A stretch of DNA of 64,000 nt, taken from assembly GCA_964016885.1 (NCBI GenBank), contig CAXHJY010000292.1:26410-90409 (forward strand), given 5' to 3'. Numbering within the stretch: position 1 is the stretch's first letter; every line of letters starts with the position of its first letter. The notes under the pieces are model-generated. The model had not been told where the DNA came from, did no database searches, and saw only the letters and a list, made by a program, of their open reading frames with translations. The position numbers and the translations under genes were made by a program. The stretch is from Eledone cirrhosa (lineage: Eukaryota). Shown one piece after another: positions 3,691 to 64,000 of the stretch.

Positions 3691-4496
3691 TACATACACA
3701 GACTGTTTGAATAAGCCCCAATGAAATAAATGGTAGTAATAGTCAAACCAATATATAAAACATATTAGTCTACCACCAGGATTTACTTCTTTTATCAGAA
3801 AATGTTTGTTATTGAACAAACCCAAAATTAAAACACATACATTTAATGTCCATTTTCCTCTCAAGTATATATCTATCTATCTCTCTATCTCTATACACAT
3901 ACATAACTCTCCCATTCTCTCATATATATATATATATATATATATATATATATATATATATATATAGATAGATAGATAGAGAGAGAGTTTTGGACAGTAT
4001 AAATGAAGCAATGAGACTATAGCGAGGAGGAGCTCCACTTAATGATGAGATATATTTGGTAGGAAGTATAGCACTGAAGTGTGATTCAAGCTACTGAAAT
4101 TGATGTAGAATAGATAATAGTAGGAGCTTGTATGGTACTTGGTGCAGATAAGACATTAAGAACAACAAGAAATAGATTTAATTAGCAATAAATATAAGAT
4201 TGCGGCGTGGAATATATCTAATTAATAATAGTGAGTAGAAATATGAAAGTCGTGTCTAGCAATATAAATAGCTAGTAATTGACATAATATTCTATCCATA
4301 TATCCACATGTAGATAGCTAGATAACTAGAAAGATATCTTTCTGTGTGCGTGTAAGTCTCTCTCTCTCTCTCTTTCTCTCATATATATATGTATACACAT
4401 ATGCATATATATATATATAAATATGCATATATATTTATATATATACATATGCATATATATATATACATATATATACATATACATATATACATATAT

Positions 4497-4790
4497 TATA
4501 ATGAAATGACAGGAGGCTGGATTTGTGTAAATCCTTGAAAGGTTTATTATACTATGATCATTTCAATGACCGGGTTCCGTATGAATCCGGTGATATCATC
4601 AGGTATTCGAAATATAATACGTGATTGTAATAGATAAAATCCATGGGGCTGAAAATCAAGGACCCGAGGGCGATCGCTATCCTGTACCTTCTACCTTAGC
4701 CGGTTGCCCTCGAGTGACGTGGCTAAAGCTTACAGTGTGCTACTACCGGTCAGATAGAGGCTCCATCAAGTAGTGAACCTCAAACCTGAT
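4497..4790 (-). mobile_element. Short hammerhead-bearing island (PLE pseudo-LTR or retrozyme-like) within TA array
   Basis: ~290 bp unique sequence flanked by TA arrays; minus strand has a complete hammerhead core followed by AATAAA. Confidence 0.6.
4549..4606 (-). ncRNA. Minimal type I hammerhead ribozyme
   Basis: Minus strand: ATAC-CTGATGA-[..ACCGG..CCGGT..]-GAAA-TGATCA (palindromic stem III)-TA-GTAT. Confidence 0.75.
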
Positions 4791-6733
4791 TATATATACA
4801 TATATATATATATACATATATATATATACATATATACATATATATATATACATATGCATATATATATACATATATATATATACATATGCATATATATATA
4901 CATATATATATATACATATGCATATATATATATACATATGCATATATATATATATATACATATGCATATATAATATATATATATATATATATACATATGC
5001 ATATATATATATATATATATATATATACATATGCATATATATATATATATACATATGCATATATATATATATATATATATATATACATATGCATATATAT
5101 ATATATATACATATGCATATATATATATATATACATATATATACATATGCATATATATATATATATACATATGCATATATATATATATACATATGCATAT
5201 ATATATATATATATAATATATATATATATACATATGTATATACATATGCATATATATATATATACATATGCATATATATATATATATATATACATATGCA
5301 ATATATATATATATATATATACATATGCATATATATATATATATACATATGCATATATATATATATATATACATAATACATATATATATATATATATACA
5401 TATGCATATATATATATATATATATATATATACATATGCATATATATATATATATATATATATATACATATGCATATATATATATATATATATATATATA
5501 TACATATACATATATATATATATATATATATACATATATATATATATATATATATATACATATATACATATATATATATATATATACATATATATATATA
5601 TATATATATACATATATATATATATATATATATATATATATACATATACATATATATATATATATATACATATATATATATATATATATATATACATATA
5701 TATATATATATATATACATATATATATATATATGTATATATATATACACATATATATACATATATATATATATATACATATATATATATATACATATATA
5801 TACATATATATATATATACATATATACATATATATATATATACATATATACATATATATATATATACATATATACATATATATATACATATATATACATA
5901 TATATACATATATACATATATATATATATACATATATATATATACATATATATATATATATATATACATATATATATATATATATATATATATATGCATA
6001 TATATATATATACATATATATATATATATATATACATATGCATATATATATATATATATATACATATGCATATATATATATACATATGCATATATATATA
6101 CATATGCATATATATATATACATATGCATATATATATATATATATATATATATATATATATATATATATATATATATGTATATACACATATGCATATATA
6201 TATATATACATATGCATATATATATATATATATACATATGCATATATATATATATACATATATATATATATATATATATATATATATACATATGCATATA
6301 TATATATATATATATATATATATATATACATATGCATTTATATATATATATATATATATACATACATATGCATATATATATATATATATATATACATATG
6401 CATATATATATATATATATATATACATATGCATATATATATATATATATATACATATATATATATATATATATATATACATATGCATATATATATATATA
6501 TATATATATATATACATATATATATACATACGCATATATATATATATATATATACATACGCATATATATATATATATATATATATATATATATATATATA
6601 CATATGCATATATATATATATATATATATATACATATGCATATATATATATAAATATATGCATATATATATATATATATATATATATATACATATGCATA
6701 TATATATATATATACATATGCATATATATATAT
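4791..6733. repeat. Long degenerate (TA)n array with TACATATGCA subunits
   Basis: Directly visible. Confidence 0.97.
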
Positions 6734-7655
6734 ATCTTTGCTCCCAAATACAGGGAGTCCTCAACCAATTCCAGCAGCTTCCCGCCTATATTAGTGATCC
6801 CCTCTGGCTTCTCAACATTCTCTACTAGATATTTTGTTTTAGTCTCATTCATTCTCAGCCCCACACTCATCGACACAGTCTCAACCTCCCGCATCAAATC
6901 CTCTGCCTCCTTCACTGTATTTGTCACCAAAACTATGTCGTCGGCAAATTCACCATCCGATACCTTTTTCGCCCTAACTCTCCTGCTCTGAGCCGGTGCT
7001 ACAGTAAAGCCAGAGTCCTGGTGTTTCTCCAGTGCAAGTTGCATACAATAGTCCACTACGATGACAAAAAAGTAGGGAGCCAATGTAGGGAGCAAAGATT
7101 GGGAATACGGAAGATGATGTGGTTGAGAGGAAGAGCAAGGCCTGGGCTGCGTGCCATAGCTTGAGATCGGTGTGGAAGTTGGACCTTCGTAGAGACCTGA
7201 AAGTCCGCCTCTTCATTGCTGTAGTGGAGTCTGTGCTGCTGTATGGGTCTGAGACTTGGACACTGACCAAGAAACTCACTCAGATGGTGGATGGGTGCTA
7301 TACGAGAATGCTGAGGATGGCTCTGAACATTAATCAGTATACACTGAGGATGAAAAACTCAGAGCTGTATGGCAGCATCCCAAAAGTCAGCTCAAAAGTG
7401 ACACAGAGGAGACTGAGGTTAGCTGGACATGCTCACCGACATCCAGAGTTGACATTGCACTCAGTACTCCTTTGGGAGCCCCTACATGGACACACTAGAA
7501 GAGGAAGACAAAGGTTAAGGTATGTTGATGCCCTCAGGACAGACACTGGTCTGTTGGAGATGCAGGACATGGCAGCGATAATGAGGGACAGAGACCGCTG
7601 GAGAGAACTCGTCCATAGATCTCGGGAATTTTACCCGCCTTAGATAGATAGATAT
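6733..7655 (+). mobile_element. 5'-truncated RTE-type LINE (family C, ends REFYPP*) with 5' inversion
   Basis: 6733-7087 on minus encodes [12 protein letters not shown]...EFADD...YLGAKI; 7088-7643 on plus continues GAKIGNT...LLYGSETW...RRLRLAGH...REFYPP*, then a TAGA tail. Confidence 0.88.
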
Positions 7656-60400: not shown

Positions 60401-60722
60401 TGGCAAATTTTGGTGGTAACTTTAGGATTTGTTGTTCTTGTTCACTGATTAAAGTGTTCCCATAGATATTTACTGTGTGGTCATTGGTAAATTCTTCCGG
60501 TAGTTTTACATCACTCATACGGATGTTGTCGATGTTATCTGGGTATTTTTGAGAATATTCGATTTTCCTTTCTTGTAGTTTTTTCTTATTCATCCATTCT
60601 AATTTCTTCTTGAAATGCCTACAGCATTCGTTTTGAGCATATTTCGTTTCGCGTCGGATGACGCTCATGAAGTCATCTCTCTCGTTTGCTGTGATGAGAT
60701 TTCGGATTTCCTTACCGTTGAT
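57429..60722 (-). CDS. PLE reverse transcriptase + GIY-YIG endonuclease (~1097 aa retained) with Asn-rich insert
   Basis: [46 protein letters not shown]-rich linker, NVVY...YIGET, ERIDQH, EH..QHH, REA, PKLN. Confidence 0.92.
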
Positions 60723-63700
60723 ATGTATATATATGTATATATATATATATATATGTATATATATGTATATATATATATATATATGTATATATATATATAT
60801 GTATATATATGTATATATATATGTATATATATATGTATATGTATATATATATGTATATATATATGTATATATATATATATATGTATATATATATATGTAT
60901 ATATATGTATATATATATATATATATATATGTATATATATATATGTATATATATATATATATGTATATATATATATGTATATATATATATGTATATATAT
61001 ATATGTATATATATATATATATATATGTATATATATATATGTATATATATATATATATATGTATACATATATATATACATATATATATATACATATATAT
61101 ATATATATACATACATATATATATACATATATATATATATACATACATATATATACATATATATATACATATATATATATACATATATATATATATATAC
61201 ATACATATATATATACATATATATATATATACATACATATATATATACATATATATATATATACATACATATATATATACATACATATATATATACATAT
61301 ATATATATACATACATATATATATACATATATATACATACATATATATATACAATATATATATATATACATATATATATATATACATACATATATATATA
61401 CATACATATATATATACATATATATATATATATATATATATATATATATATATATATATATATACATATATATATATATACATATATATATATATATATA
61501 TATATATATATACATATATATATATATATATATATATATATACATATATATATATATATATATATATATACATACATATATATATATATATATATATATA
61601 CATACATATATATATACATACATATATATATATATATATATACATATATATATACATATATATATACATATATATACATATATATATATATATATGTATA
61701 TATATATATATATATATATATATATATATATATATATATACATATATATATACATATATATATATATATACATATATATATACATATATACATATATATA
61801 TACATATATATTATATATACATATATATATACATATATATACATATATATATGTATATATATATATATATATATATATATATATATATATATACATATAT
61901 ATATACATATATATATATATATACATATATATATACATATATACATATATATATACATATATATATATATATACATATATATATACATATATATACATAT
62001 ATATATATATACATATATATATACATATATATATACATATATATATACATATATATATACATATATATATATATATATATATATATATATACATATATAT
62101 ATACATATATATATACATATATATATATATACATATATATATACATATATATATATATATACATATATATATACATATATATATACATATATACATATAT
62201 ATATACATATATATATATATATACATATATATATACATATATATATATATATATATATATATATATATATACATATATATATATATATACATATATATAT
62301 ATATATATACATATATATATATATATATACATATATATATATATATATACATATATATATATATATATATATATATATATATATATATATATATATATAT
62401 ATACATATATATACATATATATATATATATATATATATACATATATACATATATATATACATATATATATATATATATATATATATATACATATATATAT
62501 ATATATGTACATATATATATATATATATACATATATATATATATATGTACATATATATATATATATATACATATATATATAGATATATACATATATATAT
62601 ATATATATATATATATACATATATATATATATATGTACATATATATATATATATATACATATATATATAGATATATACATATATATATATATATATATAT
62701 ACATATATATATACATATATACATATATATATATACATATATATATATACATATATATATATATATATATATACATATATATATACATATATATACATAT
62801 ATATATACATATATATACATATATATATACATATATATATACATATACATATATATACATATATATATACATATATATATACATATACATATATATATAT
62901 ATATATATATATACATATATATACATATATATATATATATATATATATATATACATATATATATATATATATATATATATACATATATATATATATATAT
63001 ATATATATATATATATATATACATACATATATATATATATATATACATATATATATATATATATATATATATATATACATACACACATATATATATACAC
63101 ATATATATATATACACATATATATATATATACATATATATATATACATATATATATATACATATACATATATATATATACATATATATATATACATATAT
63201 ATATATATATATATACATATACATATATACATATATATATATACATATATATATATATATATACATATATATATATACATATATATATATATATATATAC
63301 ATATATATATATACATATATATATATACATATATATATATACATATATATATATATATATACATATATATATATACATATATATATATATATATATATAC
63401 ATATATATACATATATATATATACATATATATATATATATATACATATATATATACATATATATATACATATACATATATATATACATATATATATACAT
63501 ATATATACATATATATATATATACATATATATATATATATATACATATATATACATATATATATATATATATATATACATATATATACATATATATATAC
63601 ATATATATATACATATACATATATATATACATATATATATACATATATATACATATATATATATATACATATATATATATATATATATACATATATATAC

Positions 63701-64000
63701 ATATATATATATATATATATATATACATATATATACATATACATATATATACATATATATACATATATATATATATATATACATATATATATATACATAC
63801 ATATATATATATATACATATACATATATATATATATATATACATACATATATATATATATGCATATATACGTATATATATACATATATATACATATATAT
63901 ATATATATATATACATATATATATACATATATATACATATATATATACTTATACATATATATACATATATATATATACATATACATATATATATATATAC
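60723..64000. repeat. Very long (TA)n array, TATG-type then TACA-type
   Basis: Directly visible; runs to the window end. Confidence 0.97.

What the first reader, a model, noticed from the sequence alone, without database searches (positions are those of the whole stretch)
4380..64000. TA-microsatellite landing pads shared by unrelated retroelement lineages
Seen: over 20 insertions (PLEs with GIY-YIG, three RTE families and a CR1 from APE-type clades, a SINE, a non-autonomous element) abut TA arrays at their outer ends, in two blocks, while ~30-43.5 kb holds only old decayed copies without such flanks. Known: many PLEs prefer microsatellites. Inference: APE- and GIY-YIG-based elements converge on one target, and insertion plus array growth may be self-reinforcing.
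Basis: partly seen in the sequence, partly recalled or inferred. Interest (0 to 1): 0.75.

Follow-up and report, generated by a model that had tools for sequence, protein, structure and literature searches.

The report
Unrelated retroelements share TA-repeat targets
In this octopus-like genome several unrelated jumping genes sit inside TA repeats far more often than chance, almost always for two Penelope-type families, a CR1-type element and a short RTE-derived element, but only loosely for the rest, which suggests that different cutting enzymes likely evolved the same target independently.

Summary
The window has 23 inserted segments; 42 of 46 ends abut TA arrays, the other 4 abut another element. 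Arrays cover 27% of the window, 0% of 29.8-43.45 kb and 5.6% of a 600-kb genome sample. Genome-wide the families split in two. Near-obligate: Hydra-clade PLE (20/20), Neptune/Nematis-type PLE (18/19), CR1-type LINE (16/20 strict, 35/36 tolerant; 22/27 5' junctions) and the 608-bp element (26/29, 29/29), which is a bipartite derivative of an (ATGT)n-tailed RTE lineage. Loose: RTE1-3 and the SINE (31-52% at the 3' end; 6/29 in an unselected sample), explainable by a short AT/ATAT preference. A control SINE is at background. Arrays on 5'-truncated ends and matching repeat variants on both sides indicate pre-existing targets. Self-reinforcement is shown only for (ATGT)n tails; general array growth is untested. 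PLE targeting of TA is published and was noted before by this scan on other DNA of this genome; a near-obligate TA-targeting CR1-type LINE was not found in ten literature searches. New variant of a known kind.

The parts
4380..29724 (.). Block 1: 13 TA/(TACA) arrays with 13 inserted segments
   Evidence: all arrays TACA-rich on +; ATGCAT variant shared by the five arrays at 4380-16519
4501..4790 (.). Terminal piece of an unclassified repeat, TA-flanked also at other loci
   Evidence: 93-95% hits in 3 loci
6736..7651 (+). RTE2 insertion with inverted 5' part (6736-7085, minus) and (TAGA)n tail
7745..14663 (.). PLE1, Hydra-clade: two inverted arms (ORF 8823-11111 minus, 11567-13489 plus, 99.5% identical), pLTRs with hammerhead-like core, tail extension 14568-14663
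14753..15862 (-). RTE1, 5'-truncated, (GAT)n tail
16520..17121 (-). 608-bp bipartite RTE derivative, copy 1
17569..17730 (-). RTE2 3' fragment
17768..20015 (+). RTE3, 5'-truncated, (GAT)n tail
20294..23188 (-). RTE3, tail-to-tail with the previous copy across one array, 97% identical; open 892-aa frame with RT and PHD
23189..23499 (-). PLE2 pLTR fragment
   Evidence: 96% to 56935-57231
24291..24321 (+). 31-bp terminal piece of another repeat family; followed by TA-rich sequence in 10 of 11 other hits
24526..25845 (.). 1.3-kb unclassified segment, weak likeness to the PLE1 C-terminus (E 0.008)
27520..28124 (-). 608-bp bipartite RTE derivative, copy 2
28307..29170 (+). CR1-type LINE, 5'-truncated, tail (TTCAAAGTTA)2
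29725..43491 (.). TA-free block with decayed RT pieces and two copies of a 190-bp SINE (41452-41828) used as control
43492..64000 (.). Block 2: 11 TA/(TACA) arrays with 10 inserted segments; ends at the contig end
43807..43970 (-). RTE1 3' fragment
44809..45413 (-). 608-bp bipartite RTE derivative, copy 3 (14 best genome hits 100% identical over 605 bp)
45755..45904 (+). SINE 3' fragment with (GAAAT)n tail
46046..46835 (+). RTE1, 5'-truncated, (GAT)n tail
46899..47250 (+). tRNA-headed SINE with RTE1/3-like 3' part
47697..48305 (+). 608-bp bipartite RTE derivative, copy 4; C2H2 finger remnant at 48074-48244
49039..49375 (.). Terminal piece of an unclassified repeat, TA-flanked also elsewhere
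49836..50178 (+). tRNA-headed SINE
51719..54871 (+). CR1-type LINE, truncated inside the APE domain; open frame 52051-54783 with Exo_endo_phos_2 and RVT_1
56868..60720 (-). PLE2, Neptune/Nematis-type; 1098-aa open frame with RT, CX4CxxC linker and GIY-YIG

Best explanation
The two blocks are likely a few older TA/(TACA) microsatellites that were split again and again by independent retroelement insertions, and the families differ in how strictly they are confined to such arrays. Shown: two PLEs (GIY-YIG), a CR1-type LINE (APE) and a 608-bp RTE derivative lie in arrays at about 90% or more of their ends across the genome, in arrays longer than random points in arrays would give; RTE1-3 and the SINE do so at a third to a half. 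Inferred mechanism: each element nicks the target and primes reverse transcription there, helped by 1-4 bases of pairing between its A/T-ending tail (GTTA, ATGT, GAT, TAGA) and the nicked TA strand. A short AT or ATAT preference is enough for RTE1-3 and the SINE in a genome with 5.6% TA arrays. The strict families would need a longer read-out: the zinc-finger linker proposed for PLEs, three C-terminal C2H2 fingers in the (ATGT) RTE lineage, and in the CR1-type element either its APE, a Myb-like ORF1 domain, or a structure formed by long arrays. Each insertion leaves target on both sides, so the pad survives; (ATGT)n tails also create new pads for their own lineage.
For: Strict flank counts: CR1 16/20, 608-bp 26/29 and 29/29, PLE1 20/20, PLE2 18/19 against 5.5% background (9,436/170,400 positions); tolerant CR1 count 35/36. 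CR1 5' junctions at many different truncation points are TA in 22 of 27 resolved cases, which a tail cannot make. Repeat-variant polarity agrees on both sides of CR1 copies in 14 of 17 pairs (2 opposite) with no link to element direction (10 C-rich, 6 G-rich), and of the 608-bp element in 22 of 27 with a fixed direction (24 of 27 G-rich). All 24 arrays from 4380 on are TACA-rich on + although elements face both ways; five adjacent arrays share a rare variant. RTE copies with the array only on the 5' side and a duplication that runs into unique DNA (L041, L068, L100). Background given AT 19.7%, ATA 38.5%, ATAT 57% brackets RTE1-3 and SINE values 9-15 of 29. Control SINE 5/56 and 0/44. 3' array medians: CR1 336, PLE1 142, 608-bp 129 bp against 61 expected; RTE1-3 and SINE 35-37 bp. 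608-bp element shares a 5'UTR block, last C2H2 finger and 3' hairpin with an APE-RT ORF in L213; 5 of 24 copies of that lineage carry a 608-bp copy in the same direction within 700 bp behind their tail.
Against: Loci are best-scoring hits (22-54 matches per search, 20-30 loci read), not random copies; CR1 3' ends did not occur in the unselected 600 kb, and only 3 incidental copies (3 TA-flanked) were seen in TA-rich loci. Several PLE2 loci are two ends of one insertion. No empty allele was seen. Neighbouring background arrays also share polarity in 59-67% of pairs. The control SINE is older (80-95% to the window copy), so age is confounded. No nicking activity was tested; the Myb-like hit is below the Pfam cut-off (E 2.7e-4) and a single-sequence model gave no Myb match. 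The exact autonomous partner of the 608-bp element was not found; L213 is a relative (69% in the 5' block).
Confidence: 0.72

Rival explanations
1. Arrays grow after insertion: short TA seeds are hit, then the flanks expand and become larger targets.
For: Arrays beside CR1, PLE1 and the 608-bp element are 2-5 times longer than length-biased expectation. Plant precedent: MuTAnT empty sites average 9 TA repeats against about 15 per flank at filled sites (PMC4486113, passages). Tandem duplication of a CR1 piece with its array on C1480. (ATGT)n tails do attract later insertions.
Against: RTE2 and RTE3 best hits are as young (98% identity) yet their arrays are no longer than expected (medians 34.5 and 37 against 61), so growth is not a general result of insertion; length-dependent targeting explains the contrast.
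Confidence: 0.3
2. No element-encoded specificity: long (TA)n arrays break or form hairpins through host processes and any active retroelement is captured there, or insertions simply survive better in arrays.
For: Strict families prefer long arrays; unrelated enzymes end up in the same sites; passive accumulation was proposed for Drosophila Waldo-A/B (PMC3812793, passages).
Against: Strong family differences among elements of similar age (80/88 against 49/116); fixed direction of the 608-bp element relative to ATGT; target duplications at RTE sites; control SINE at background.
Confidence: 0.15
3. The elements make the arrays themselves as 3' microsatellite tails.
For: RTE tails are microsatellites (PMC6007223, passages); the L213 lineage ends in (ATGT)n or (AT)n in 21 of 24 copies, part of which is probably tail.
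Against: Arrays at variable 5' truncation points (CR1 22/27; 608-bp 29/29; RTE1 12/20, RTE3 13/25, RTE2 10/26), and locus-specific variants shared by both flanks.
Confidence: 0.07
4. Assembly artefact on an unplaced contig: reads joined through TA repeats.
For: The window is the end of a 90-kb unplaced contig and stops inside an array.
Against: The same flanks occur at over 100 loci on chromosome-scale contigs; window copies differ from each other by 2-4% like independent insertions.
Confidence: 0.03

Closest known systems
Hydra-clade and Neptune/Nematis Penelope-like elements (Craig et al. 2021, PMC8557442; sections 3 and 11 and passages read)
   Same: C-terminal GIY-YIG, linker zinc-finger motifs, inverted/tandem pLTR structure, insertion into (TA)n
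   Different: Nothing essential; the PLE part is a new member of known clades
Microsatellite-specific APE LINEs Waldo (ACAY), Mino (AC), Kibi (TC), Koshi (TTC) (listed in PMC3812793, passages; PMC4640811 names Tx1 and R1 as the target-specific APE clades, passages)
   Same: APE-type LINEs confined to a microsatellite; the (ATGT)n target of the 608-bp lineage is the reverse complement of Waldo's ACAT
   Different: Here the elements are CR1-type and RTE-type, not R1 or Tx1, and the target is (TA)n, which those lists do not give for an APE element
RTE insertion signature Tn-TA and tail-dependent site choice (PMC6007223, PMC13295347; passages)
   Same: Loose TA-centred preference tied to the microsatellite tail fits RTE1-3 and the SINE
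   Different: Does not give near-obligate array insertion as seen for the 608-bp element
Bipartite non-autonomous RTE derivatives such as Bov-A, RTESINE1/2, WALLSI3 (PMC5786205, passages)
   Same: 5'UTR part fused to the 3' end of an RTE, 5'-truncated copies, tail repeat
   Different: Keeps the last C2H2 finger coding remnant and is confined to (AT)n/(ATGT)n arrays
Plant TA-microsatellite DNA transposons MuTAnT, Micron, TAFT (PMC4486113, passages)
   Same: Independent lineages converge on (TA)n; filled flanks longer than empty sites
   Different: DNA transposons in plants, each in a different genome; here several retroelement classes share the same arrays in one animal genome

Membership tests
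Hydra-clade PLE (PLE1) | DKT in place of DKG; CxCX5C linker; no CCHH inside GIY-YIG; CxxC and CxH beside the conserved E and N | tested here: met
   DKT at 86, CNCRIKNKC at 622-630, one Cys between LIY and YFG, CNLC and CLH near the C-terminus against section 11 of PMC8557442
Hydra-clade PLE (PLE1) | Insertion into (TA)n; hammerhead in pLTR | tested here: met
   20 of 20 outer ends; hammerhead-like core motif in both pLTRs by pattern, not reaching an Rfam gathering score
Hydra-clade PLE (PLE1) | N-terminal RWK motif; RT phylogeny | not tested
   The open frame read starts downstream of the expected place; no reference set for a tree
Neptune/Nematis PLE (PLE2) | C-terminal GIY-YIG with two Cys inside and CX2-5CxxC linker | tested here: met
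   CTNRKCIIC at 965, VVYSIRC...C...YIGET at 986-1008 (definitions). No Pfam hit
Neptune/Nematis PLE (PLE2) | Clade placement (Neptune or Nematis) by RT tree | not testable with these tools
   No named PLE reference proteins available
CR1 clade LINE | ORF1 plus ORF2 with N-terminal APE and RT, short tandem-repeat tail, frequent 5' truncation | tested here: met
   1045-aa ORF2 with Exo_endo_phos, Exo_endo_phos_2, RVT_1; 377-389-aa ORF1 in 3 of 6 copies read; tail and truncations
CR1 clade LINE | RT placed in CR1 rather than L2, Jockey, Tx1 or R1 | tested here: inconclusive
   Motifs YLDFSKAFD, GVPQG, FADDSK, RPHLEYC fit CR1 as recalled from memory, not from a call; homologues are nearly all unnamed; PDB gives only L1 and R2
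CR1 clade LINE | ORF1 of a described type (RRM+CCHC, PHD, esterase, transposase 22) | tested here: inconclusive
   Only sub-threshold Myb/SANT-like (E 2.7e-4) and CCCH (E 0.52) hits; no homologue found; PMC4120745 main text has no 'Myb' or 'CCCH'
Bipartite non-autonomous RTE (608-bp element) | 5' and 3' parts both derived from an RTE LINE, no RT | tested here: met
   69% over 207 nt to the L213 5' region, 82% to its last zinc finger, 87% to its 3' hairpin; L213 encodes APE+RT
Bipartite non-autonomous RTE (608-bp element) | TPRT marks: fixed 3' end, 5'-truncated copies | tested here: met
   Copies starting at 26, 38, 63, 152, 200, all ending at 608
Bipartite non-autonomous RTE (608-bp element) | Autonomous partner with the same 3' end | tested here: inconclusive
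   Only a relative found; protein search with the finger remnant gave nothing
Target-specific non-LTR retrotransposons | Nearly all copies in one repeat type | tested here: met
   CR1-type, 608-bp, PLE1, PLE2: 80 of 88 ends
Target-specific non-LTR retrotransposons | Nearly all copies in one repeat type (RTE1-3, SINE) | tested here: not met
   49 of 116 best-hit 3' ends; 6 of 29 unselected
Target-specific non-LTR retrotransposons | Endonuclease cleaves the target specifically | not testable with these tools
   Needs a biochemical or cell assay

The most novel reading that the evidence does not exclude
A CR1-type LINE and an RTE lineage have each evolved near-obligate targeting of long (TA)n/(ATGT)n arrays, two further origins of target specificity among APE retrotransposons outside the R1 and Tx1 clades, sharing their pads with GIY-YIG Penelope elements; the CR1-type element reads array length, through a Myb-like ORF1 or a non-B DNA structure, and insertions renew the pads.
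Probability: 0.4. Interest if true: 0.72.

Novelty: new variant of a known kind. Interest (0 to 1): 0.5.

Why it matters
Target specificity among APE-type LINEs is described mainly for the R1 and Tx1 clades, and how microsatellite targeting works is called poorly understood. This genome holds young, apparently intact CR1-type and RTE elements spanning strict to loose preference for one target, next to PLEs with a different endonuclease. That gives a natural comparison set for finding what determines the target (endonuclease, tail pairing, zinc fingers, array structure), and it offers a sequence-level cause for transposon hotspots in a genome that is over 5% TA arrays.

Tried and rejected
Empty allele in the assembly: a search with 37600-43480 found only the window itself and SINE copies. 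Laying three contig sets of one sample and one RAD run on an RTE3 locus showed no joint skipping the element and was swamped by repeat copies; uninformative either way. Rfam E-value scan was flooded by TA-hairpin microRNA models; at gathering level only the SINE tRNA head scored. The 608-bp element as solo LTR, MITE or retrozyme was rejected: no terminal inverted repeat, variable 5' end, 5'-truncated copies, RTE homology. A first 5'-junction count for RTEs overshot into arrays and was redone with masking; some RTE2 5' ends remain mis-called because of 5' inversions. The CR1 5' count of 28/28 included an internal (AT)6 of the 5'UTR and was replaced. A de novo survey for young non-TA families was biased by TA masking and locus choice and was not used. 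One PLE2 search returned nothing and was repeated with an inner stretch. Pfam and PDB gave no hit for either PLE protein. ORF1: no homologues; model pLDDT 74, three helices, best VIA Z 5.6 to unrelated helical hairpins, no Foldseek match, so the Myb reading is neither confirmed nor excluded. No Atlas result was obtained.

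
Full report
Setting. The window is the last 64 kb of a 90,409-bp unplaced contig in a 3.0-Gb assembly. The only homologue of the CR1 ORF2 that names an organism is from Argonauta at 56% identity, so the host is probably an octopod; this is inference.

Observation. TA-like arrays (alternating purine-pyrimidine runs, at least 75% A+T) cover 26.9% of the window, 0% of 29.8-43.45 kb, and 5.6% of 60 evenly spaced 10-kb stretches from chromosome-scale contigs. Between the arrays lie 23 inserted segments; 42 of 46 ends abut an array and 4 abut another element. 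The middle block holds only decayed RT pieces and two copies of an abundant 190-bp SINE.

What the elements are. PLE1 (7745-14663) is an inverted pair of arms whose protein has DKT, CxCX5C, no CCHH, and CxxC/CxH motifs, the Hydra-clade signature in section 11 of PMC8557442, where almost all families insert into (TA)n. PLE2 (56868-60720) has a CX4CxxC linker and two cysteines inside GIY-YIG, the Neptune/Nematis layout. The CR1-type element has an APE-RT ORF2 and, in full-length copies elsewhere, a 377-389-aa ORF1; CR1 placement rests on recalled RT motifs. RTE1 and RTE3 are sister families (about 75% nucleotide identity, (GAT)n tails), RTE2 is distant with a (TAGA)n tail; their APE domains are truncated away in the window, so APE is inferred from clade. 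The SINE has a tRNA head and an RTE1/3-like 3' part. It is therefore a bipartite RTE derivative of the kind described in PMC5786205 (passages).

Genome-wide test. For each family the best 22-30 hits were fetched with 1.5-kb flanks; the window's own copy and one tandem duplicate were dropped. A flank counted as TA if an alternating run of 10 or more bases, at least 70% A+T, began within 3 bases of the tail. Background is 5.5%. Results: CR1 16/20 (the 4 misses are interrupted TA or CA-then-TA runs), 608-bp element 26/29 at the 5' end and 29/29 at the 3' end, PLE1 20/20 after removing 9 internal tandem junctions, PLE2 18/19 after removing 4 internal junctions and 1 hidden flank, with some loci being two ends of one insertion. 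A tolerant definition gives CR1 35/36. In contrast RTE1 12/29, RTE3 13/29, RTE2 15/29, SINE 9/29 at the 3' end; either side RTE1 13/20, RTE3 19/25, RTE2 18/26, SINE 23/29 against 9.6%. The two groups differ (80/88 against 49/116, P about 1e-13). In the unselected 600 kb, 6 of 29 GAT-tailed ends found by pattern had a TA flank (a few of the 29 may not be true ends). Background given a start of AT, ATA or ATAT is 19.7%, 38.5% and 57%, so a 2-4 base preference would give the loose group's values. A control SINE scored 5/56 and 0/44, but it is older.

Did the arrays come first? For CR1, one search scored 32 5' breakpoints: 22 TA; 7 of the 10 others were not true 5' ends (element continues or internal break), one has TA 23 bases further up, two are 83% and 77% relatives. 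Two short 94% copies lacked TA. That is 22 of 27 resolved junctions. Variant polarity (TACA against TGTA) agrees across CR1 insertions in 14 of 17 pairs without regard to direction, and across 608-bp copies in 22 of 27 with a fixed direction; background neighbours agree in 59-67%. In the window all 24 arrays from 4380 onward are TACA-rich on + while elements face both ways, and the five arrays at 4380-16519 share the ATGCAT variant at 0.9-2.6 per 100 bases against at most 0.2 elsewhere. Some RTE copies have the array only upstream with a duplication reaching unique DNA. These point to pre-existing arrays split by insertions. No empty allele could be observed.

Self-reinforcement. Arrays behind CR1 (median 336 bp), PLE1 (142) and the 608-bp element (129) exceed the 61 bp expected for a random point in a background array; those behind RTE1-3 and the SINE (35-37) do not. 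Equally young RTE2 and RTE3 copies having short arrays argues against general growth after insertion and for length-dependent choice by the strict families, but growth is not excluded and has a plant precedent (PMC4486113, passages). One loop is visible: 5 of 24 copies of the L213 lineage carry a same-direction 608-bp copy within 700 bp behind their tail, where 3 near-full copies in the 600-kb sample predict about 0.1.

Mechanism. Shown: flank statistics, both-side arrays, polarity, domain content. Inferred: nicking in the array followed by target-primed reverse transcription with short tail-target pairing, as proposed for RTEs (PMC6007223, PMC13295347, passages); extra determinants in strict families. 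For PLEs the linker finger has been proposed, and a PLE protein nicks AT-rich DNA in vitro (PMC11167929, passages). For the CR1-type element the Myb/SANT-like ORF1 hit is sub-threshold and unconfirmed by structure.

Comparison with what is known. PLE targeting of (TA)n is published. APE elements specific for ACAY, AC, TC and TTC repeats are listed in PMC3812793 (passages), and PMC4640811 names R1 and Tx1 as the target-specific APE clades (passages). An octopus repeat annotation reports active CR1, RTE and Penelope families and hotspots but no microsatellite targeting in the parts read (PMC13282606, first third and passages); PMC9115989 (passages) mentions only an RTE tail; PMC3124438 and PMC4120745 (passages) added nothing on TA targeting. 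Ten searches showed no TA-specific CR1 or RTE in their listings. Repbase, most subscription journals and all supplementary files were not seen and may already record such families. Earlier notes of this scan report PLEs and retrozymes in TA arrays and a two-endonuclease train on AAT repeats in the same genome; none matched the CR1 or 608-bp sequences.

Verdict. Real feature, partly over-generalised. New variant of a known kind; interest 0.5, carried by the CR1-type and (ATGT) RTE lineages and the strict-to-loose gradient on one target.

Noticed in passing
L213:2362-5974: Autonomous RTE-type element with APE, RT and three C-terminal C2H2 fingers; 15 of 24 other copies match its C-terminal frame at 96-99% amino-acid identity, so the family is young; ends in (ATGT)n or (AT)n.
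   Followed up: partly
L276:646-1776 and five other full-length CR1 copies: ORF1 with a weak Myb/SANT-like N-terminus, poly-Q, Thr-rich stretch and two CCCH-like fingers; no homologue found.
   Followed up: partly
L213:1504-1845 (minus); also L120, L306, L036, L057: 3' end of another LINE-like family whose C-terminus resembles restriction-like-endonuclease elements (recalled motif, no Pfam hit); 3 of 5 copies end in (ACAT)n, two of them tail-to-tail with the 608-bp element, a possible third endonuclease class on the same pads.
   Followed up: partly
window 6736-7651: RTE2 insertion with an inverted 5' part, a twin-priming-like structure; several other RTE2 loci look similar.
   Followed up: no
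window 41452-41828: Tandem pair of a 190-bp SINE with 93 hits in 600 kb of sample, often in tandem, not tied to TA arrays.
   Followed up: partly
window 20600-23275: RTE3 ORF carries a PHD finger just after the RT domain (Pfam E 2.5e-6).
   Followed up: no
window 57432-60725: PLE2 ORF stays open through a long Asn-rich low-complexity insert of about 160 residues.
   Followed up: no
L016/L017 (C1480): A 157-bp CR1 fragment and its array are duplicated in tandem with a 1.6-kb period, suggesting array-mediated unequal exchange.
   Followed up: no
random 10-kb sample L203-L262: Neighbouring TA arrays share C/G variant polarity in 59-67% of pairs, even more than 3 kb apart; cause not examined.
   Followed up: no
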